From positions 1 through 45,585 of the IMG/VR virus record IMGVR_UViG_648276647_000019: DNA of 45,585 nucleotides. One strand, written 5' to 3'. The DNA is from a virus. Taxonomy: Duplodnaviria > Heunggongvirae > Uroviricota > Caudoviricetes. Made by a program: the position numbers and the translations under genes. Below the pieces are notes generated by a model. The model ran no database searches. It saw only the letters and a program-made list of their open reading frames with translations, and was not told where the DNA came from. Shown one piece after another: positions 7,834 to 19,816 of this stretch (within the stretch, counting starts at the first letter, position 1; the number at the start of each line of letters is the position of its first letter).

Positions 7834-8717
7834 GTATGGAGCTGATGGTTAAGATGATCATGAGCAAACCAGTAATGATTGATTCTGATAATTCTGGGCG
7901 TTATATTGTTCTGGCAGCGGCAAAATCCGTTGCCGGGATTGGCGTCCTGAAATTGATTACTGAGCATAACCGCGCTCATGCGGTTTTTTCGTGTCATGAG
8001 CATTGCTACGCCCAAATTATGGTGGGGCGTACAGGGCCGACTTCGGTCGGGCCGGGTTCGGTAGTCTCCGGTAACGCCAACCCTGTACGTCTCACCACCT
8101 CTGTGATTGGCGTCCCATGTGGTGAGTTTTCTGAAAAACTGACTACCGGGGCTGTCACCATGACTACTCTCCCAACCCTCACTCAACCTGAAATTGCCAT
8201 CGTTGATGGTCAGGCTGTTACATCTTCTTTGGCTGTTGCTGACTTCTTCTCTAAACGTCATGACGATGTACTGAAAAAGATCCGCATTTTGGATTGTTCT
8301 CCAGAGTTTTGTGCCCGCAATTTTGCGGAGACATCAATTTTGGTACACCAGCCCAACGGCGGTACTCGCAAACTTCCTTGCTACCACATCACCCGCGACG
8401 GCTTCGCGTTCCTGGCAATGGGCTTCACTGGCAAACGTGCAACCCAGTTCAAGGAGGCATACATCAATGCCTTTAACCAGATGGAAAAGGCGCTGATCGG
8501 AAAGGTTGATAATTCATGTGTCGCGCACAATGCCCATGTTGTTTACCTCTACATGGCTGAAATTCACCGCGTCTGGTTAGAACAACTTTATCCGATGCTG
8601 GTTTCAGCTCAGTCGCCGCTGGCTTCATCACTCTACGACTACATCAACGATGGTGTATTCGTTGCCGGGCTGGTGGACTCGGAACTGAACGAAAAGCATA
8701 AGGAGGTGCGTAAGTGA
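7830..8717 (+). CDS. Rha-family phage regulatory/antirepressor protein (295 aa; Rha domain from internal Met at 8160)
   Basis: Strong RBS GGAGGTG before ATG 7830, overlapping the upstream stop; Rha-like core plus a C-terminal domain shared with copy 2. Confidence 0.7.
   Translation: MSMELMVKMIMSKPVMIDSDNSGRYIVLAAAKSVAGIGVLKLITEHNRAHAVFSCHEHCYAQIMVGRTGPTSVGPGSVVSGNANPVRLTTSVIGVPCGEFSEKLTTGAVTMTTLPTLTQPEIAIVDGQAVTSSLAVADFFSKRHDDVLKKIRILDCSPEFCARNFAETSILVHQPNGGTRKLPCYHITRDGFAFLAMGFTGKRATQFKEAYINAFNQMEKALIGKVDNSCVAHNAHVVYLYMAEIHRVWLEQLYPMLVSAQSPLASSLYDYINDGVFVAGLVDSELNEKHKEVRK
7880..8159 (+). repeat. Structured repeat unit 3 (near-identical to unit 1)
   Basis: Terminator-like hairpin about 7966-7992; the UUCG hairpin carries a compensatory pair change relative to unit 1 (CAAC/GUUG to CGAC/GUCG). 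Confidence 0.6.
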
Positions 8718-13987: not shown

Positions 13988-14004
13988 TTTTGTGGAGAAA
14001 ATTA

Positions 14005-14370
14005 ATGCGAGATATTCAGATGGTTCTTGAACGCTGGGGCGCGTGGGCGGCAAGTGATAGCTCTGGCGTTGACTATTCACATATAGCAGCTGGTTTTAAG
14101 GGACTTATCCCGCAGACGGGTAAAACACGAATTTCTTGTACAGATGATGATGCTCTTATCATTGAGGGCTGCCTCGCTCTCCTTAAGAAGAAAAAACCGT
14201 ACGAGCATTCTCTAATTGTGGCTCATTACCTGTATGGCATCTCGAAACGGAAGATCGCAAAGGCTCGTAAAAAAGATGAGAAATTAATACGTATCGAGAT
14301 ACAGATGGCTGAAGGGTTTATTGATGGCTGTCTTTCTATGTTGGGCGTGAAGCTTGAAATGGATAGCTAG
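14005..14370 (+). CDS. Q: Late-gene antiterminator Q
   Basis: Small basic protein in the canonical position between nin-region genes and the lysis cassette; ATG 14005 after GGAGAAA (ORF-track start at 13990 is TTG). Family call by position and resemblance. Confidence 0.65.
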   Translation: MRDIQMVLERWGAWAASDSSGVDYSHIAAGFKGLIPQTGKTRISCTDDDALIIEGCLALLKKKKPYEHSLIVAHYLYGISKRKIAKARKKDEKLIRIEIQMAEGFIDGCLSMLGVKLEMDS

Positions 14371-14406: not shown

Positions 14407-14856
14407 TCACAAGTGAGGGAAGATTCTACGTAATATTGACCAGCACCTTCCGAAGGTATATAGCGAAATCATAAGGGAGGATAAGCCTAACAGTATGAAT
14501 AAGAAATCAATTGGCTGGCCCACAACAATAACATCATCTGGCAAAAACATAGCAATCAATGGGAATACGCATGCGACGATAAGTGTTATTCCTGTTGAAA
14601 GTAAGCGGTTTACTATTGTTGGCAATATGTTGTTTCGCTTAAGAGCATTGATAGCTCCTTCCTTATCGCTATCTGCGCTACTGAATATAGAAATTGCTGC
14701 CAGAACAAACCCAAACAGGATCCCTGAAATTGTCGAAAGCACACCTGCTGTTGTGAGAACGTCAGCATGTTTCATTGGCTTAAACAGTCTGGTTGCCACA
14801 TAGGTAAGTACAGCCAAGAGGACTGCCTTCCAGAGAATAGTCGCTAATTCTCTCAT
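14407..14856 (-). CDS. Small multi-pass membrane protein (about 149 aa, about four predicted TM helices), second gene of the inserted module
   Basis: Several long hydrophobic stretches; lower-GC region; 10-20 nt downstream of the 313-aa gene on the same strand; the two ATGs (14868, 14856) are ambiguous. Confidence 0.6.
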   Translation of the reverse strand: MRELATILWKAVLLAVLTYVATRLFKPMKHADVLTTAGVLSTISGILFGFVLAAISIFSSADSDKEGAINALKRNNILPTIVNRLLSTGITLIVACVFPLIAMFLPDDVIVVGQPIDFLFILLGLSSLMISLYTFGRCWSILRRIFPHL

Positions 14857-14877
14857 TGAATCCCCCATGTCGAGTTA

Positions 14878-15822
14878 TCAAGTTCTGTTAGCGAGTTCAT
14901 ACTGCGCTAAGTAGTTAGCGTTCTCAATTTTAGCAGATATCATCGCTGTTCTGATATCGGAATCAGATGGATAGCCACTTTTAACAACTATTGTTTTTGT
15001 ACCGATCAACACTTGATCAAGTAGGCTTTTCGGCGTTTTGTTTGTGGGTTCAGTGACATCAATTTTCTTGATTTTTAGTCCACCAGAACCTTTGGGAAAC
15101 AGCTCAATCAACTCCTTGATTGCGTCGGTGACTGAGGTTTTAAGATAGTTAAAACCAGCCTTTTTAGGGCGTAAACGACCTCGCATATTCAATCTTAGGT
15201 GCGATCCCCCCATCCCAACGACCATGTCAATGATGTCATTAGTCAAATCGTTCTTAATATTGTAATTAGCTTTATTGAAGTTTCTAGGCGCTGCAATCGT
15301 AAGGTCGAAACTGCGCAAGATATTGCCATCTTCGAGCAGTTCTTTCATGCTCTCATGCTTCCATATTGCTTCAAAAGTAACGTTGTTCATTTTGGTTTTG
15401 TTGTACAAAATAAACGCTAAATCATTAACTTTTGGTCCTAAATGGTTGAGAGTCATGGCTAATAAGTCTGTCTCGTAGTAATACATAAAGTATGTACGCT
15501 CTACGACAGAATCTTTATCGCTAAGGGGTATCGTACGTTCGCTGCCAGTTGTCCTGTCCTCAATAAACGGTAACAGGCAGTCCCTTCTCCAGGATACGTA
15601 GCCAAAGTAGCTCTTCTGTGTTGCGTCCTTTTCAAGTATGACGAGCTTTAAACCTCGATTTTGGGTTTCAGTTGTGTGCACCAAAGGGAAGGTGATCGGG
15701 GCGACTGCAGTAATTTGATCAAAAGCTAGCTTTGCTGTAGACGAACCATCTTTTTTGCTTCCATTACCAGTGAAAAAACCAACTCTAACTCGACGAGTTT
15801 TGTTCTTGTCTTGAGTGCTCAT
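14878..15822 (-). CDS. Hypothetical cytoplasmic protein (313 aa from ATG 15822), first gene of the inserted module; candidate defence protein
   Basis: Lys/Asn-rich, lower-GC ORF; the 415-aa ORF-track version reads through terminator hairpins and A-tracts, so the ATG at 15822 is preferred; no motif assigned. Confidence 0.6.
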   Translation of the reverse strand: MSTQDKNKTRRVRVGFFTGNGSKKDGSSTAKLAFDQITAVAPITFPLVHTTETQNRGLKLVILEKDATQKSYFGYVSWRRDCLLPFIEDRTTGSERTIPLSDKDSVVERTYFMYYYETDLLAMTLNHLGPKVNDLAFILYNKTKMNNVTFEAIWKHESMKELLEDGNILRSFDLTIAAPRNFNKANYNIKNDLTNDIIDMVVGMGGSHLRLNMRGRLRPKKAGFNYLKTSVTDAIKELIELFPKGSGGLKIKKIDVTEPTNKTPKSLLDQVLIGTKTIVVKSGYPSDSDIRTAMISAKIENANYLAQYELANRT

Positions 15823-15870
15823 TCTCGATCCGAAACAAAGTTTAACAACTGGATGAAAACTACAATAAAA

Positions 15871-15900
15871 ATTAGAGAAAATCACTAATGCGGTCCGCAA
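15871..15900 (-). promoter_or_regulatory. Candidate sigma70 promoter for the two-gene module (-35 TTGCGG, 18 nt, -10 TCTAAT on minus strand)
   Basis: Read from the reverse complement of 15871-15900; about 45 nt upstream of the ATG at 15822. Confidence 0.3.
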
Positions 15901-15948
15901 AAAATACTGTAATCTGTTAAGAATGGTCACTTCGCCACACAACTTAAA

Positions 15949-15970
15949 CCCGCCGCGAGCGGTTTTTTTC
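15949..15970 (+). terminator. Plus-strand intrinsic terminator (CCGC stem, loop, GCGG, then T7)
   Basis: ACCCGCCGCGAGCGGTTTTTTT; would stop rightward read-through from Q before the lysis genes. Confidence 0.45.
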
Positions 15971-16002
15971 ATTTCTGGCATCCCGCAGGCAGAAATGCAG
16001 GC

Positions 16003-16032
16003 AAAAAAAAAGCAGGGCGGCGCGCGCCCTGC
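16003..16032 (-). terminator. Minus-strand intrinsic terminator (8-bp GC stem GCAGGGCG/CGCCCTGC followed by U9)
   Basis: Plus strand shows A9 then the perfect-arm hairpin; on the minus strand the hairpin is followed by nine U. Confidence 0.55.
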
Positions 16033-16169
16033 AAAAATGGATGGCGCCAGGGGATGATGGATACCCCTTGACGGTTTCATGTTCTCAACGCACAAGATAG
16101 TATAAAGAGCGGAGAGTGTATACAAAGGAAGTGTTGCAGAATTACAGGAAATGATGCGTTTTGTTATTA

Positions 16170-16200
16170 TTGATATAATGCGAAATCATTTTTATAAAAA
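16170..16200 (+). promoter_or_regulatory. Promoter-like element TGATATAATGCGAAAT (extended -10), candidate late promoter
   Basis: Perfect TATAAT with upstream TG; 13-mer TATAATGCGAAAT recurs at about 19393 and in variant form at about 18497 and 14455. Confidence 0.3.
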
Positions 16201-16223
16201 ATGAAATTGCGCATTTAAGGAAT

Positions 16224-16302
16224 AAAAAAATCGGGAACCCAGGGGCTCCCGAAAAGGATTAACATGAATTCTCACAATGTTGCGGTGCCTGCCATGCATC
16301 GC
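16224..16302 (-). ncRNA. Candidate small antisense RNA (about 80 nt)
   Basis: Minus-strand TTTACA-N16-TATGAT promoter (16309-16336) followed about 80 nt later by hairpin UCGGGA/UCCCGA plus U7 (16224-16252). Confidence 0.3.
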
Positions 16303-16455
16303 GTTTTCATCATACCGAAAAAACAACCGCTGTAAACTCTGAAATATTATCCGGTGACGGATGATTAATGGTTTTTATATCAGGTTCGCTACGGCGGGCC
16401 TTTCTTATTCCACTCACCCGACATCCGGGTAATTCATCTCCCGGAAGGGGGAGTC

Positions 16456-16677
16456 ATGACAATGGACAGAATGACAACCGGTGCATCATACGGCGTGTCG
16501 GCGGCCACAACAATTTATTCTCTCCTGGATTCCTTCACCCACGATGAGTGGGCTGCAATCGGTATTCTGGGCGGGTTGTTTTTTGGTGCGCTGACGTGGA
16601 TCACCAATATTTATTTTCAGCACCGGCGACTGAAACTGGAAGAGCAGCAGAGGAATGGCGTTAAAAACGAAAGTTAA
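16456..16677 (+). CDS. Class II holin (pinholin-like, phage 21 S21 type)
   Basis: About 70 aa, two TM segments, the first Gly/Ala/Ser-rich; dual-start-like N-terminus (M-T-M); directly precedes a SAR endolysin. Confidence 0.85.
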   Translation: MTMDRMTTGASYGVSAATTIYSLLDSFTHDEWAAIGILGGLFFGALTWITNIYFQHRRLKLEEQQRNGVKNES

Positions 16678-17194
16678 ATACGGCCTGTCAGCCGCTGTTC
16701 TGGCGCTGATTGCTGCCGGTGCGTCTGCTCCTCAGATACTCGACCAGTTTCTGAATGAGAAAGAAGGTAATCACACAACGGCATACCGTGATGGTTCCGG
16801 TATATGGACCATCTGCCGTGGTACCACCATGGTGGATGGTAAGCCTGTTATTCCTGGCATGAAACTGACGAAGGAAAAATGCGACCAGGTTAATGCCATT
16901 GAGCGGGATAAGGCGCTGGCATGGGTGGAGAAAAACATCAAAGTGCCACTGACCGAACCCCAGAAAGCGGGTATTGCGTCATTCTGCTCCTATAACATTG
17001 GCCCCGGTAAGTGTTTCCCGTCGACGTTTTATAAGCGGCTGAATGCCGGTGATCGTAAGGGCGCATGCGAGGCGATTCGCTGGTGGATAAAGGACGGTGG
17101 ACGCGACTGCCGTATCCGTTCAAATAACTGCTACGGTCAGGTTGTTCGCCGTGACCAGGAGAGCGCATTAGCCTGTTGGGGTATCGACAGATAA
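16655..17194 (+). CDS. SAR endolysin (lysozyme with N-terminal signal-anchor-release domain)
   Basis: N-terminal weakly hydrophobic Ala/Gly-rich segment (LSAAVLALIAAGASAP) followed by a lysozyme-type catalytic region; overlaps holin 3' end. Confidence 0.9.
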   Translation: MALKTKVKYGLSAAVLALIAAGASAPQILDQFLNEKEGNHTTAYRDGSGIWTICRGTTMVDGKPVIPGMKLTKEKCDQVNAIERDKALAWVEKNIKVPLTEPQKAGIASFCSYNIGPGKCFPSTFYKRLNAGDRKGACEAIRWWIKDGGRDCRIRSNNCYGQVVRRDQESALACWGIDR

Positions 17195-17468: not shown

Positions 17469-18038
17469 ATGAATATGATGACCGTGCCATTCCACGGCGC
17501 AGAGCTTTATGTTGTCAACCACAACGGCGAGCCGTACACCCCAATGAAACCTATCGTTGAGGGAATGGGTATGACCTGGCAGTCTCAACACCGCAAGTTG
17601 ATGGAGAGATTTAAGACCTGCATCATCGAAATGATGATGCAGCTCCCCGGTGATACTCAGCGTCGTCTGGTTATCTGTCTTGCTTTACGTAAACTTGCAG
17701 GTTGGCTGCAAACCATCAGCCCTAACAAAGTCCGCCCTGAAATCCGCGACAAGGTAATCCAGTATCAGGAAGAGTGTGACGATGTGCTCTATGAATACTG
17801 GACTAAAGGTTTTGTCGTTAATCCCCGTCGAATGAGCGTGATGGAGGAACTCAACCAGGCATGTGCTGACATGAAAAGGGATAAAAACATCGCCAGTCTG
17901 TATGGTGCAGGGTTAAACGAATGGAAATCAGTCAAAGCGGCTCATGTATCAAAAATTCGTGCGCTGGTGGATGAGGCAAACTTGCTGATCGGCTTTGTCA
18001 TGGCGGATACAGGGAAGGGGAAAACCACCGGGACATGA
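17469..18038 (+). CDS. Phage antirepressor (Ant-type, P22 AR N-terminal domain-like)
   Basis: N-terminus MNMMTVPFHGAELYVVNHNGEPYTPMKPIVEGMGMTWQSQHRKL matches the antirepressor N-terminal pattern as I recall it. Confidence 0.7.
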   Translation: MNMMTVPFHGAELYVVNHNGEPYTPMKPIVEGMGMTWQSQHRKLMERFKTCIIEMMMQLPGDTQRRLVICLALRKLAGWLQTISPNKVRPEIRDKVIQYQEECDDVLYEYWTKGFVVNPRRMSVMEELNQACADMKRDKNIASLYGAGLNEWKSVKAAHVSKIRALVDEANLLIGFVMADTGKGKTTGT

Positions 18039-18048
18039 AATAAAAGTA

Positions 18049-18086
18049 AAACCCCGATTGCACGAACAGTCGGGGTTTTTTGTTTC
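18049..18086 (+). terminator. Intrinsic terminator after the antirepressor gene
   Basis: CCCCGA...UCGGGG stem followed by UUUUUUGUUU. Confidence 0.65.
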
Positions 18087-18112
18087 TGACCTTGAGTAAG
18101 ACAAGGGAGAAC

Positions 18113-18295
18113 ATGGGGAAGTATAAACGAATCCTGTTGAGGTTGACTATGAAAAACGGCCTTGAACTGAAGGCGCCTGTAACTGATGACATCAGCAGAG
18201 CGCTGGCCTTTGCTATTAAGTGGGTGGCTGTTGGCATCGCTGTGTCTCCGATACTGTATGGGCTGGCAAAACTGGTCATTGCACTGAAATCATGA
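18113..18295 (+). CDS. Hypothetical small protein with C-terminal TM segment (60 aa)
   Basis: ATG 18113 after AAGGGAG; hydrophobic C-terminus (WVAVGIAVSPILYGLAKLVIAL). Confidence 0.4.
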   Translation: MGKYKRILLRLTMKNGLELKAPVTDDISRALAFAIKWVAVGIAVSPILYGLAKLVIALKS

Positions 18296-18725
18296 ATGGC
18301 TGGCAGAGAGATGAACCGTGTTTTATCGGTCAGATACGCTGGTGGTGAGAGAGGGGCCGGAGGGCTGCGACAGCAGGCCCGTCGGGGCGAAACGGGCAAA
18401 GAAAAGTGCAACACAAATAAAACAATAAAGTTACATGTATTTTGTAAGATATTATTCGAATTTGTTTTGAATTATCGAAATGCATATTATTTACTATAAT
18501 GCAATAATTTAATTTCCATTATTGTCATGGTGTTGCGCGAATAAAAAATCATGCCAGTTTTATTGAGTTTACAATTTTAATGTTAATTATGACAACATAA
18601 TGATAACGCAAAAGGATGAAAAAACTCACTGTACCAGAAGCGGCGGACGACAGCGACGGGCAGCTGCATGACCGCTACGTAATACCCGTTCATCAAAATC
18701 ACGGAGTATCAGAACAGGTGGCTGC

Positions 18726-19193
18726 ATGAACCGCATAACGACGTACGTAATAATATTATTGCTGGTAGTGACTGCAGCGCTGGCATGGACAACGGACCAT
18801 TACTACCGTAACGCTGTCACTTACAAAGAGCAGCGCGACAAAAACGCCGGAGAGCTGAAACTGGCGAACGCGACCATTACTGACATGCAGCAGCGTCAGC
18901 GTGATGTTGCTGCACTTGATGCCAGATACTCAAGGGAGTTAGCTGATGCGAAAGCTGAAAATGATGCTCTGCGTGCTGATGTTGCCGCTGGTCGTCGCCG
19001 GTTGCGTGTCAGGGCAGTCTGCCCCACCGTGTCCGCAGATAAAACCGCCACCGCCACCGGCGTGGCTGATGCAGCCAGCCCCGGACTTACTGACGCCGCT
19101 CAGCGGGATTATTTCATCCTCAGGGAACGAATCGCAACCAGCGACAAAATGATTCGGGGATTGCAGGCGTACATCAGGAAGGAATGTCAGTAA
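18726..19193 (+). CDS. Rz: Spanin inner-membrane subunit Rz
   Basis: Strong similarity to lambda Rz as recalled (RDKNAGELKLANATITDMQQRQRDVAALD...AENDALRADVAAGRRRL). Confidence 0.9.
   Translation: MNRITTYVIILLLVVTAALAWTTDHYYRNAVTYKEQRDKNAGELKLANATITDMQQRQRDVAALDARYSRELADAKAENDALRADVAAGRRRLRVRAVCPTVSADKTATATGVADAASPGLTDAAQRDYFILRERIATSDKMIRGLQAYIRKECQ
18946..19152 (+). CDS. Rz1: Spanin outer-membrane lipoprotein Rz1 (embedded in Rz, +1 frame)
   Basis: Lipobox LVVAGC and proline-rich core PPPPPAW, embedded in Rz as in lambda. Confidence 0.85.
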   Translation: MRKLKMMLCVLMLPLVVAGCVSGQSAPPCPQIKPPPPPAWLMQPAPDLLTPLSGIISSSGNESQPATK

Positions 19194-19228
19194 AAAAAGC
19201 AGGGCCGGCTCAGACCCTGCAGAATATA
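19194..19228 (-). terminator. Minus-strand intrinsic terminator (GCAGGG/CCCUGC stem plus U7)
   Basis: Plus strand shows A7 then hairpin; the U-tract exists only on the minus strand. A second similar element (CCCC-GGAA-GGGG) lies at 19252-19275. Confidence 0.4.
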
Positions 19229-19410
19229 CGATGAATATTAAGATAAGTTATAAAAATAAAACCCCGGAAGGGGCTCCTATGCCGTCATAAGAATAGTAAG
19301 AATGGTTCCGGGGGTATATGGATAAAAAAATTCAGAATGAAAAAAAGTAATTCTGGTTGTTATTTTGAGTGTTTATGCGAAATGCGCCTTACTATAATGC
19401 GAAATGCTGA

Positions 19411-19440
19411 ATGACAAATAAAAAAAAGGAGCCGAAACGG
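19411..19440 (-). terminator. Minus-strand intrinsic terminator (GGAGCC/GGCUCC stem plus U8)
   Basis: Plus strand A8-GGAGCCGAAACGGCUCC; U-tract on minus strand; adjacent to the TATAATGCGAAAT element. Confidence 0.4.
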
Positions 19441-19633
19441 CTCCGAAAAATAAGTCATCAAAGTTTACACGCGTATTCAATTACGGCTTTGCAGTGCTCG
19501 TCTGCGGTTAATATCGTACAGAAACATAATAATCTTCGTACACCATGAAAATGTAACCAGATACTAAACACTGGCGCATGCCATGAACATATTCTACTGG
19601 CTGAAAAGCCTTATCCATAAGGAGCAAAAAACA

Positions 19634-19816
19634 ATGCCTGAGATTAAAGATATTGTTACTGATGAACTGGTAAAAAATGCCCTTAAATCAGAGGTTGTCA
19701 CTCTGGCTGTAAAAACTCAGATTAAGAACACGCTGGAGCCTCAGATTGAGGTGGCAGTTGATAATGCACTGTCAGATATTCTGGGCGTCATGAGTACAGG
19801 TGACACCGGAGAATAA
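19634..19816 (+). CDS. Hypothetical small protein (60 aa)
   Basis: ATG 19634 after AAGGAG; ORF-track start at 19583 lacks an RBS. Confidence 0.4.
   Translation: MPEIKDIVTDELVKNALKSEVVTLAVKTQIKNTLEPQIEVAVDNALSDILGVMSTGDTGE

What the first reader, a model, noticed from the sequence alone, without database searches (positions are those of the whole stretch)
16126..16455. Repeated promoter-like element TATAATGCGAAAT in the late region and a candidate antisense small RNA
The 13-mer TATAATGCGAAAT occurs at 16180-16192 (with extended -10 TG) and 19392-19404, with variants at about 18497 (TATAATGCAATAAT) and 14451-14470 (TATATAGCGAAATCAT); the first two are each followed within about 40 nt by an A-tract plus GC hairpin. 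These may be copies of a late or moron promoter. On the minus strand, TTTACA-N16-TATGAT (16309-16336) followed about 80 nt later by a hairpin plus U7 (16224-16252) predicts a discrete small RNA antisense to the leader of the lysis transcript.
Basis: seen in the sequence. Interest (0 to 1): 0.5.

Follow-up and report, generated by a model that had tools for sequence, protein, structure and literature searches.

The report
Repeated antisense-RNA cassettes flanking prophage lysis genes
The flagged stretch is not the phage's late promoter but a conserved non-coding cassette in the leader of the lysis genes that most likely makes a roughly 79-base antisense RNA, with a diverged second copy after the lysis genes.

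Summary
The sequence features are real; two coordinates are off by 6 and 1 bases.

**Late promoter.** The Q-dependent late promoter and its terminator lie upstream, at 15869-15970. That element is conserved next to Q in about 30 loci and 76 phages. None of the 59 Q loci carries the 13-mer.

**Cassette A.** The flagged region belongs to a non-coding cassette (about 15996-16410) between that terminator and the holin leader. I found diverged orthologues (55-78% identity) in four other E. coli prophage lineages. They keep these parts:
- the minus-strand promoter hexamers (TTTACA and TATGAT) across a changing spacer;
- two minus-strand intrinsic terminators, with compensatory stem changes and U-runs only on the minus strand;
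- a plus-strand terminator before the holin.

No expression data exist.

**The 13-mer.** Within this window the repeat is at chance level. Orthologues show that regions A (16003-16252) and B (19192-19444) are diverged paralogues, and C (18470-18590) holds partial copies. The TATAAT is conserved in A lineages (17/17 bases in the most diverged one) but not in B's orthologue. A 23-codon ORF is refuted (ATG becomes ACG). Nothing matches Rfam. I score it as a new member of a known kind, of moderate interest.

The parts
13990..14370 (+). Q antiterminator gene of the Q21/933W family (context)
   Evidence: Matches Pfam PF06530 at 6.6e-53. Weak hit to the Q21 structures 6p18 and 6jnx, E = 1e-4.
15869..15970 (+). 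The real Q-linked late promoter element with its terminator tR' (hairpin 15950-15962, T7 at 15963-15969)
   Evidence: Conserved downstream of Q in about 30 of 59 Q loci and in 76 phages, including SfIV, SfII, cdtI, Stx2a phages and 434B/DLP12. It is always followed by an intrinsic terminator whose sequence varies.
16003..16032 (-). T2, a minus-strand intrinsic terminator (stem 16032 to 16012, U9 at 16011 to 16003); left boundary of cassette A
   Evidence: Found by the terminator scan. The stem and the A-run are conserved in L121, L112 and L123 while the loop varies. L123 carries two compensatory pairs (GCAGGATG/CATCCTGC).
16141..16214 (+). AT-rich block. It holds the consensus extended -10 (TG 16171-16172, TATAAT 16174-16179, predicted start about 16186) and a pair of ATGCGAAAT-type motifs (16178-16186, and 16200-16214 as an inverted or variant copy)
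   Evidence: Highest-scoring sigma-70-like site in the region. TATAAT is kept in the window/L081, L128/L129, L121 and L123; L112 has AATAAT. The 17-mer TTGATATAATGCGAAAT is identical in L123. The motif pair, 22 nt apart, is shared with cassette B.
16224..16252 (-). T1, a minus-strand intrinsic terminator (9-bp stem 16252 to 16231, U7 at 16230 to 16224); 3' end of the antisense RNA
   Evidence: L121 and L112 carry different stems (UGGGAGC/GCUCCCA and CGGGGGC/GCCCCCG), each followed by a U-run. A G.U pair on the minus strand would be an A.C mismatch on the plus strand.
16224..16302 (-). Predicted antisense small RNA of about 79 nt: a 5' stem-loop, a single-stranded middle, a U-rich stretch, then terminator T1
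   Evidence: The same architecture folds in three sequence variants. A covariance model finds it only at the orthologous position, at 88-115 bits. No Rfam family matches.
16309..16336 (-). Promoter of the antisense RNA: -35 TTTACA (16336 to 16331), 16-nt spacer, -10 TATGAT (16314 to 16309)
   Evidence: Matches 10/12. The -35 is invariant in all lineages. The -10 is TATGAT in four and CATGAT in L123, and the spacer sequence varies.
16382..16410 (+). Plus-strand terminator-like hairpin (16382-16401) with a U-rich tail, just before the holin leader
   Evidence: A hairpin with a T-run sits at this position in L121, L112, L084-L086 and L123, with differing stems. It is duplicated around inserted genes in L081, L128 and L129.
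16411..16677 (+). Holin leader (16411-16455) and the class II (S21-type) holin with two start codons (16456-16677)
   Evidence: Matches Pfam PF04971. The leader is 89-94% identical in L121 and L112.
19192..19444 (.). Cassette B, a diverged paralogue of A. It has a minus terminator (19220 to 19199 plus U7), ATGCGAAAT motifs at 19375 and 19397 (the second within TATAATGCGAAAT, 19393-19405), and a minus terminator (19444 to 19428 plus U8)
   Evidence: Collinear homology with A-family orthologues. The L121 orthologue is 82% identical. Terminators found.
19420..19557 (-). Second antisense RNA candidate, in cassette B: promoter GTTACA-17-GATTAT (19557 to 19529), an RNA of about 103 nt, and terminator 19444 to 19428
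   Evidence: The -35 is conserved in the window, L121 and L122. The -10 is GATTAT, or AATAAT in L122. In L122 the terminator is replaced by a different hairpin with an A-run.
18470..18590 (+). Block C: partial paralogous copies of the AT-rich promoter block (TATAATGCAATAAT at 18495-18508), with no minus-strand terminator after it
   Evidence: L123A against C scores 36 (shuffle maximum 34). L121A against C scores 33 (maximum 31). Controls are not significant.

Best explanation
Region 15996-16410 is a self-contained non-coding cassette in the leader of the late (lysis) operon. It lies downstream of the true Q-dependent promoter and terminator (15869-15970) and upstream of the holin leader. It holds two convergent sigma-70 promoters.

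**Minus-strand unit.** The promoter TTTACA-16-TATGAT (16336 to 16309) makes an RNA of about 79 nt that ends at the strong terminator T1 (16252 to 16224). A second minus-strand terminator, T2 (16032 to 16003), stops any read-through before it reaches the late promoter.

**Plus-strand unit.** The promoter TGaTATAAT (16171-16179) would make a non-coding RNA of about 220 nt. That RNA runs through the antisense gene and stops at the plus-strand terminator (16382-16410), so it does not express the holin.

**Inferred function.** The small RNA is fully complementary to every plus-strand transcript crossing 16224-16302, including the Q-antiterminated lysis mRNA. I infer that it pairs with leaky leader transcripts in the lysogen, leading to duplex cleavage and destabilisation, and that its promoter also interferes with weak oncoming transcription. 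Strong Q-modified transcription would override it. It may also act in trans.

**Paralogues.** Cassette B (19192-19557, after Rz and before a DUF826 gene) is a diverged paralogue with the same layout. Block C (about 18470-18590) is a partial copy.

**Shown versus inferred.** Shown by comparison: the layout, the conservation of signals and the paralogy. Inferred and untested: transcription and function.
For: **The true late promoter is elsewhere.**

**Orthologues.** Found through holin homologues: L121 (75-78% identity), the L112 type (67-72%, six contigs), L123 (about 55-60% in the left half), and L128/L129/L081 (94-99%).

**Minus-strand promoter.**
- The -35 is invariant. The -10 is TATGAT in four lineages and CATGAT in L123.
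- 5 of the 16 spacer positions differ in L112.
- An independent scan of L112 finds the same 10/12 site.

**Terminators T1 and T2.**
- Different stems with the same geometry, and U-runs on the minus strand only.
- G.U pairs on the minus strand would be A.C mismatches on the plus strand.

**Other evidence.**
- All three RNA variants fold into the same architecture.
- The plus -10 is kept in 4 of 5 lineages, and 17/17 bases are identical in L123.
- A plus-strand terminator precedes the holin in all variants.
- No conserved ORF exists. The ATG of the 23-codon ORF is ACG in L121 and L112, and the other small ORFs are frameshifted or lack starts.
- A and B are paralogous. The minus-strand unit of B is conserved in L121 and L122.
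Against: - There are no expression data of any kind.
- Only about five distinct lineages exist, and several are near-identical, so the counts are small.
- In L121 the minus promoter has a 15-nt spacer. In L123 the -10 is CATGAT, the terminator is weak (5 bp, tail UUUUAUAA), and the RNA body is largely different. The RNA sequence is therefore not strongly constrained.
- The high window-L121 identity of the RNA body (96%) continues through to the holin, so it may reflect a recombination breakpoint rather than selection.
- Folding z-scores are modest, -1.0 to -2.1.
- The plus -10 is weaker in L112 (AATAAT, no TG) and is lost in B's orthologue (CAAAAT). What A and B share is the ATGCGAAAT motif rather than the hexamer.
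- The antisense target lies about 150 nt upstream of the holin ribosome-binding site, so an effect on lysis is not obvious.
- The cassette is rare. It is absent from 5,426 complete E. coli genomes, the phage and plasmid collections, IMG/VR and JGI metagenomes.
Confidence: 0.55

Rival explanations
1. One reading: the TATAATGCGAAAT sites are copies of the phage late promoter, on which Q acts.
For: Copy A has a consensus extended -10. A second -10-like AAAAAT lies 22 nt downstream, which resembles a promoter followed by a sigma-dependent pause element. Plus-strand terminators follow, at 16382-16410.
Against: The element that co-occurs with this Q family in about 30 loci and 76 phages is a different sequence, at 15869-15970, with its own terminator. 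None of the 59 Q loci contains the 13-mer, even allowing one mismatch. Relatives such as 434B/DLP12 and SfIV go from that element to the holin in about 115-140 nt with no such site. The -10 of copy B is not conserved.
Confidence: 0.04
2. The conserved core of the AT-rich block is a protein-binding site rather than a promoter. It would be two ATGCGAAAT-type boxes 22 bp apart, on the same face of the DNA. The TATAAT in A would then be incidental or secondary.
For: What A and B families share is the box, not the hexamer. Box 1 is ATGCGAAAT, ATGTGAAAT or GTGCGAAAT. Box 2 is ATG-AAATT, GCGAAATG, ACGAAATT, ATGCGAAAT or ATGCGAAAAT, always about 22 nt downstream. The exact 9-mer occurs 3 times against about 0.35 expected, all in A and B, plus an inverted one-mismatch copy in A. 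In A the boxes form an imperfect 37-bp palindrome.
Against: No candidate binding protein is identified. There are few independent sequences. In the window as a whole, one-mismatch matches to the box are not enriched (10 against 15.7 expected). In L123, conservation covers the whole TTGATATAAT as well, which fits a promoter. The two readings are also compatible, as an operator overlapping a promoter.
Confidence: 0.2
3. The cassettes are decaying remnants of morons, or recombination 'linker' sequences at module boundaries, with no present function. The promoter-like and terminator-like pieces would be leftovers.
For: All three blocks sit in variable slots of the lysis region: between tR' and S, between ant and Rz, and in the bor position after Rz. 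Inserted genes in this slot are flanked by duplicated hairpins. No ORF is conserved. The cassette is rare.
Against: At 55-72% overall identity the promoter hexamers stay intact. Two terminators keep their hairpin and U-run through compensatory changes, and the layout is collinear in A and B. Neutral decay would not preserve these.
Confidence: 0.15
4. The hairpins act in the plus-strand late mRNA leader, for example as processing or stabilising stem-loops. They would not be minus-strand terminators, and no antisense RNA would be made.
For: Every late transcript contains these hairpins. The plus-strand 228-nt leader folds better than shuffles (z = -3.4). Processing of late leaders by RNase III is known in lambda (cited in PMC7547250).
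Against: U-runs of 7-9 follow the stems only on the minus strand, in every lineage and in both cassettes. G.U pairs on the minus strand become A.C mismatches on the plus strand. A conserved promoter points into T1.
Confidence: 0.06

Closest known systems
P22 sar RNA (Psar convergent with Pant in the immI region)
   Same: A short antisense RNA of about 70-80 nt is made from a promoter inside the leader of a phage operon. That promoter is convergent with a strong plus-strand promoter, the RNA ends at an intrinsic terminator, and the unit is expressed autonomously. This is stated from my own knowledge of the P22 literature.
   Different: There is no sequence relationship. The Rfam sar model gives only a sub-threshold hit elsewhere in the window (18044-18128, 25 bits against a threshold of 43). 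sar covers the ant ribosome-binding site, whereas this RNA covers non-coding leader about 150 nt upstream of the holin start. Here the unit has an extra insulating terminator and occurs in two paralogous copies.
Lambda oop RNA
   Same: A 77-nt phage antisense RNA with its own sigma-70 promoter and intrinsic terminator, which triggers cleavage of the overlapping mRNA. oop is cited as a lambdoid regulatory RNA in PMC7547250.
   Different: oop lies in the early region, opposite the 3' end of cII, and belongs to the lysis-lysogeny switch. It shows no homology to this RNA.
Short RNAs ended at tR' of lambdoid late promoters (lambda 6S RNA, StxS)
   Same: These are non-coding RNAs from the late-leader region of lambdoid prophages, made in lysogens (PMC7547250). 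This window has such a unit at about 15920-15970.
   Different: Those are plus-strand products of PR' itself. The RNA studied here is on the opposite strand, has its own promoter and lies downstream of tR'.
Morons (autonomous promoter-gene-terminator inserts in lambdoid phages)
   Same: The cassette is AT-rich (33% GC against 52%), sits in a classic insertion slot, has its own promoter and terminators, and is absent from close relatives of the flanking genes.
   Different: It carries no protein-coding gene. The cargo is non-coding.
Type I toxin-antitoxin loci (hok/sok type)
   Same: The geometry is similar: a plus-strand leader, a short antisense RNA made from within that leader, and a membrane-damaging protein (the holin) downstream.
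   Different: There is no conserved small toxin ORF (ATG becomes ACG). A plus-strand terminator separates the cassette from the holin. The holin is a normal Q-controlled late gene.

Membership tests
Q-dependent late promoter (PR'/qut) of lambdoid phages | Co-occurs with the Q gene across genomes, immediately or shortly downstream of it | tested here: not met
   The 13-mer, allowing one mismatch, is absent from all 59 Q loci. A different element, at 15869-15970, is the one linked to Q.
Q-dependent late promoter (PR'/qut) of lambdoid phages | Followed by an intrinsic terminator that produces a short RNA in the absence of Q | tested here: inconclusive
   A plus-strand terminator lies about 200-220 nt downstream, at 16382-16410. 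It is also the general insulator of the holin leader in relatives that lack the cassette.
Q-dependent late promoter (PR'/qut) of lambdoid phages | Q-dependent read-through | not testable with these tools
   This needs a reporter or an in vitro transcription assay.
Phage cis-antisense small RNA (oop/sar kind) | Own sigma-70 promoter on the strand opposite a transcribed operon | tested here: met
   TTTACA-16-TATGAT matches 10/12. The hexamers are conserved over a varying spacer in 4-5 lineages.
Phage cis-antisense small RNA (oop/sar kind) | Discrete short transcript ended by an intrinsic terminator | tested here: met
   This is a prediction from sequence. T1 has a 7-9 bp GC stem and U7, with compensatory stems in L121 and L112. 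The RNA itself has not been observed.
Phage cis-antisense small RNA (oop/sar kind) | Complementary to a functional site of the target mRNA (ribosome-binding site or 3' end) | tested here: not met
   The overlapped 23-codon ORF is not conserved. The overlap lies in non-coding leader about 150 nt upstream of the holin start.
Phage cis-antisense small RNA (oop/sar kind) | The RNA is detected in cells | not testable with these tools
   No transcriptome data are available here.
Any curated RNA family (Rfam 15) | Score at or above the family's gathering threshold | tested here: not met
   There are no gathering-level hits in 15750-16500 or 18030-19620. The best sub-threshold hits are noise.
Moron | Insert between conserved phage genes that is absent in relatives, with deviant composition and its own promoter and terminator | tested here: met
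   The tR'-to-holin distance is 485 nt here, against about 115-140 nt in 434B/DLP12 and SfIV. GC is 33% against 52%. For the promoters and terminators.
Moron | Carries a protein-coding gene | tested here: not met
   No conserved ORF lies on either strand.
Type I toxin-antitoxin | A small toxic ORF on the sense RNA whose translation the antisense RNA controls | tested here: not met
   The start codon ATG at 16264 is ACG in L121 and L112. The 21-codon ORF at 16277 is frameshifted in L121 and lacks an ATG in L112.

The most novel reading that the evidence does not exclude
A subset of E. coli lambdoid prophages brackets its lysis genes with a family of paralogous, terminator-insulated, sense/antisense non-coding cassettes: before S, before Rz, and after Rz. 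Together these would form a second control layer, independent of Q. It would filter out leaky lysis-gene transcripts in lysogens and help set lysis timing. Alternatively, it would supply trans-acting small RNAs to the host. The paired ATGCGAAAT boxes would be the shared control site.
Probability: 0.15. Interest if true: 0.65.

Novelty: new member of a known kind. Interest (0 to 1): 0.4.

Why it matters
Lysis genes are lethal if expressed early. Their control in lambdoid phages is usually explained by Q antitermination and the holin/antiholin timer. A conserved antisense RNA gene in the lysis leader, with a paralogue just after the lysis genes, would add a testable RNA-level safeguard or timer.

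The work also has practical value for annotation:
- It places the real late promoter of this Q21-family prophage about 1.5 kb downstream of Q, beyond an opposite-strand two-gene insert.
- It corrects an over-extended gene call across that promoter.
- It shows that a paralogy invisible within one genome became detectable through orthologues.

Tried and rejected
**Searches for the cassette.**
- No match in the phage collection (near and distant), plasmids, or 5,426 complete E. coli genomes (distant).
- IMG/VR pattern scans gave only chance hits.
- Of the two JGI metagenome scans, one gave nothing and the other 19 chance hits.
- Orthologues were reached only through holin homologues and exact-protein look-ups.

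**Ideas I rejected.**
- A protein-coding small ORF or type I toxin: the start codon is not conserved.
- My first reading, that the segment is an insert specific to this window: it is a conserved leader family.
- My earlier verdict that the repeat is pure chance: revised after the orthologue comparisons.
- Copy D at 14457 as a promoter: it is coding sequence.

**Checks that gave nothing.**
- A trans target within the window: none stands out.
- Known RNA families: none match.
- The two-gene minus-strand insert as a defence system: no PADLOC hit.
- Literature searches for the sequences: nothing relevant.
- The covariance model found no distant homologues in 90 sources. The exception is a weak hit at the orthologous spot in L123.

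**Left unverified.** The cold-box-like motif and the link between DUF826 and cold-shock genes.
Full report
**Context.** The window is an E. coli lambdoid prophage. It is identical to GL883931.1 of assembly GCA_000176555.2 (L082), and the closest holin relatives are from E. coli. Around the finding the genes run as follows:

| Coordinates | Strand | Feature |
|---|---|---|
| up to 13987 | + | DUF968 gene |
| 13990-14370 | + | Q (PF06530) |
| 14407-14856 | - | 149-aa gene |
| 14878-15822 | - | 314-aa gene |
| 16456-16677 | + | S21-type holin |
| 16655-17194 | + | lysozyme |
| 17469-18038 | + | Ant |
| 18726-19193 | + | Rz |
| 19583-19816 | + | DUF826 gene |
| from 21236 | + | terminase |

**Observation.**
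- The 13-mer is at 16174-16186 and 19393-19405.
- The variants are at 18495 and 14457.
- The minus-strand promoter-like site 16336 to 16309 (10/12 match) and the hairpin plus U7 at 16252 to 16224 are exact.

Within the window alone the repeat is statistically ordinary. About 22 repeated 13-mer pairs are expected by chance and many isolated ones are present. Pairwise local alignments of the copies do not exceed shuffles. Promoter matches of 10/12 or better number 4, against 5.9 expected. One oddity stood out: the three sites are the only TATAAT hexamers on the plus strand in 45.6 kb, and all lie in AT-rich islands.

**Where the late promoter really is.** I fetched 59 loci that encode relatives of this Q.
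- A segment of about 100 nt, window 15869-15978, recurs downstream of Q. The distance ranges from 30 nt to 2.5 kb.
- It has a strongly conserved core (TGTTAAGAGTGGTyACTTCGnCACA). Before the core lies a variable but always palindromic box.
- Within 30-50 nt it is followed by an intrinsic terminator whose sequence differs between loci.
- The same element is in 76 phage records.
- In SfIV and in 434B/DLP12 it lies between a minus-strand insert and the holin, 115-140 nt before the holin start.
- Q is distantly related to the structurally solved Q21, and PF06530 is named as the Q21/933W family in bioRxiv 10.1101/651190.

This element is the Q-linked late promoter with tR'. The 'late promoter' reading is therefore not supported.

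**Finding orthologues of the flagged region.** DNA searches of every collection failed. Holin homologues and exact-protein look-ups gave contigs in which the whole stretch from tR' to the holin is homologous but diverged:

| Locus | Identity to the window |
|---|---|
| L121 | 75-78% |
| L112 type (six contigs, DLP12-like Q-porin context) | 67-72% |
| L123 | about 55-60% on the left, 93% on the right |
| L128, L129, L081 | 94-99% |

The region is therefore a conserved leader family, not an insert peculiar to this genome.

**What is conserved on the minus strand.**
- The -35 hexamer TTTACA is invariant. The -10 is TATGAT in four lineages and CATGAT in L123.
- The 16-nt spacer changes at 5 positions in L112, and is 15 nt long in L121. 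The scanner finds the same 10/12 site independently in L112.
- Terminator T1 has different stems in the window, L121 and L112. Each forms a 7-9 bp GC hairpin followed by a U-run.
- Terminator T2 keeps its stem while the loop varies, and in L123 it carries two compensatory pairs.
- U-runs follow these stems only on the minus strand. G.U pairs on the minus strand would be A.C mismatches on the plus strand.

So these are minus-strand terminators. All three sequence variants fold into a 5' stem-loop, an open middle, a U-rich stretch and the terminator.

The RNA body is not strongly constrained. It is largely different in L123. The 96% identity to L121 continues through to the holin, so it may reflect a recombination breakpoint.

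**What is conserved on the plus strand.**
- The consensus -10 is present in the window/L081, L128/L129 (TGgTATAAT), L121 (no TG) and L123. L112 has AATAAT.
- In L123 the 17-mer TTGATATAATGCGAAAT is identical although its surroundings are only about 55-60% identical.
- A plus-strand hairpin with a U-rich tail precedes the holin leader in every variant, with different stems. Transcripts that are not Q-modified should therefore stop before the holin.
- The 23-codon ORF with a good Shine-Dalgarno sequence (16264-16335) is not real, because its ATG is ACG in L121 and L112. Other small ORFs are not conserved either.

**The repeat is a paralogy.** Comparing A-family orthologues with region B gives long collinear alignments. 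These run from T2 through the AT-rich block to T1.
- L121-A against window-B scores 52, with a maximum of 36 in 200 shuffles.
- L112-A against L121-B scores 45, with a maximum of 34.
- A six-sequence alignment shows the shared order: an A-run with a GCAGGGC...GCCCTGC hairpin, short conserved words, an AT-rich block with two ATGCGAAAT-type boxes about 22 nt apart, then an A-run with a GC hairpin.
- In that alignment B's first box (19375) corresponds to A's TATAATGCGAAAT, and B's TATAATGCGAAAT (19393) corresponds to A's second box.
- In B's orthologue the hexamer is CAAAAT although the box persists. The shared element is therefore the box, and only the A lineages consistently offer a consensus -10.
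- Block C also matches A-family sequences above shuffles (36 against 34; 33 against 31), whereas three control intergenic regions do not. C has no T1.
- Cassette B has its own conserved minus-strand unit: GTTACA-17-GATTAT (AATAAT in L122), an RNA of about 103 nt, and the terminator 19444 to 19428. In L122 that terminator is replaced by a different hairpin.

All three blocks lie in variable slots of the lysis region when compared with Stx2 phage 86.

**Mechanism (inferred).** The cassette is an insulated pair of convergent transcription units. T2 shields the late promoter from minus-strand read-through, and the plus-strand terminator shields the holin from plus-strand transcription. I think the small RNA most likely pairs with plus-strand leader RNA, whether it comes from the cassette's own promoter, from leaky read-through of tR', or from the Q-antiterminated lysis mRNA. 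Its promoter would also interfere with weak oncoming transcription. The result would be a threshold against accidental lysis-gene expression. A trans-acting role is equally open. None of this is tested. The overlap lies about 150 nt from the holin start, which weakens a direct translational model.

**Comparison with known systems.** The closest analogues in mechanism are P22 sar, lambda oop, and the short PR'-derived RNAs such as StxS (PMC7547250). There is no sequence or Rfam relationship to any of them. The cassette has a moron's position and composition but carries no gene. It fails the defining test of a type I toxin-antitoxin locus.

**Verdict.**
- The antisense-RNA reading is supported by comparative evidence.
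- The 'repeated promoter' reading is partly right: the blocks are paralogous, and a promoter is plausible for copy A only.
- The 'late promoter' reading is wrong.
- I rate this a new member of a known kind, of moderate interest.

Noticed in passing
window 5997-8102: Three tandem pairs of isrK-like RNA and C4 antisense RNA, all above the Rfam gathering score, plus one c4-a1b1 target element. This looks like a triplicated P1/P7 immI-type anti-repressor control region.
   Followed up: no
window 14407-15822 (minus strand): A two-gene insert on the opposite strand separates Q from its late promoter. It encodes a 149-aa membrane protein and a 314-aa protein (PHROGs 8552 and 7651, function unknown, no PADLOC hit). 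Both are 85-87% identical in E. coli APEC O78. Gene calls that extend the 314-aa gene to 16080 or 16125 run across the late promoter and are over-extended.
   Followed up: partly
window 15885-15900; loci L001-L059, L083, L108, L109: The upstream half of the conserved late-promoter element holds a box that varies between loci but is always palindromic (GCGGTCCGC, TTTACGTACGTAAA, GCGTTACGC, TCGGCCCGA). It may be the Q-binding element that changes with Q subtype. L010 carries two tandem copies of the whole element.
   Followed up: partly
L081 5320-5960; L128, L129; L086 2990-3460: Genes inserted between tR' and the holin are flanked by two copies of the plus-strand hairpin GG(Y)TCGC..GCGGGCC with a T-run. 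This suggests that the terminator hairpin is the recombination or insertion point for morons in this slot.
   Followed up: partly
window 19420-19557 (minus strand): A second antisense RNA candidate of about 103 nt lies in cassette B. Its -35 is conserved in three lineages, and in L122 its terminator is replaced by an unrelated hairpin.
   Followed up: partly
window 18616-18729: A 37-codon ORF with a Shine-Dalgarno sequence (MKKLTVPEAADDSDGQLHDRYVIPVHQNHGVSEQVAA). Its stop codon overlaps the Rz start, and it lies downstream of block C.
   Followed up: no
window 19511-19525: ATATCGTACAGAAAC, upstream of the DUF826 gene, contains CGTACAGA. From memory, this resembles the cspA 'cold box'. In alignments it corresponds to the -10 region of cassette A's minus promoter. 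Its significance is unknown.
   Followed up: no
window 15897-15969: The short RNA predicted from the late promoter to tR' gives a very weak isrK-like Rfam hit (11.6 bits, E = 9.7). This is probably noise, but isrK-type RNAs are present elsewhere in this prophage.
   Followed up: no
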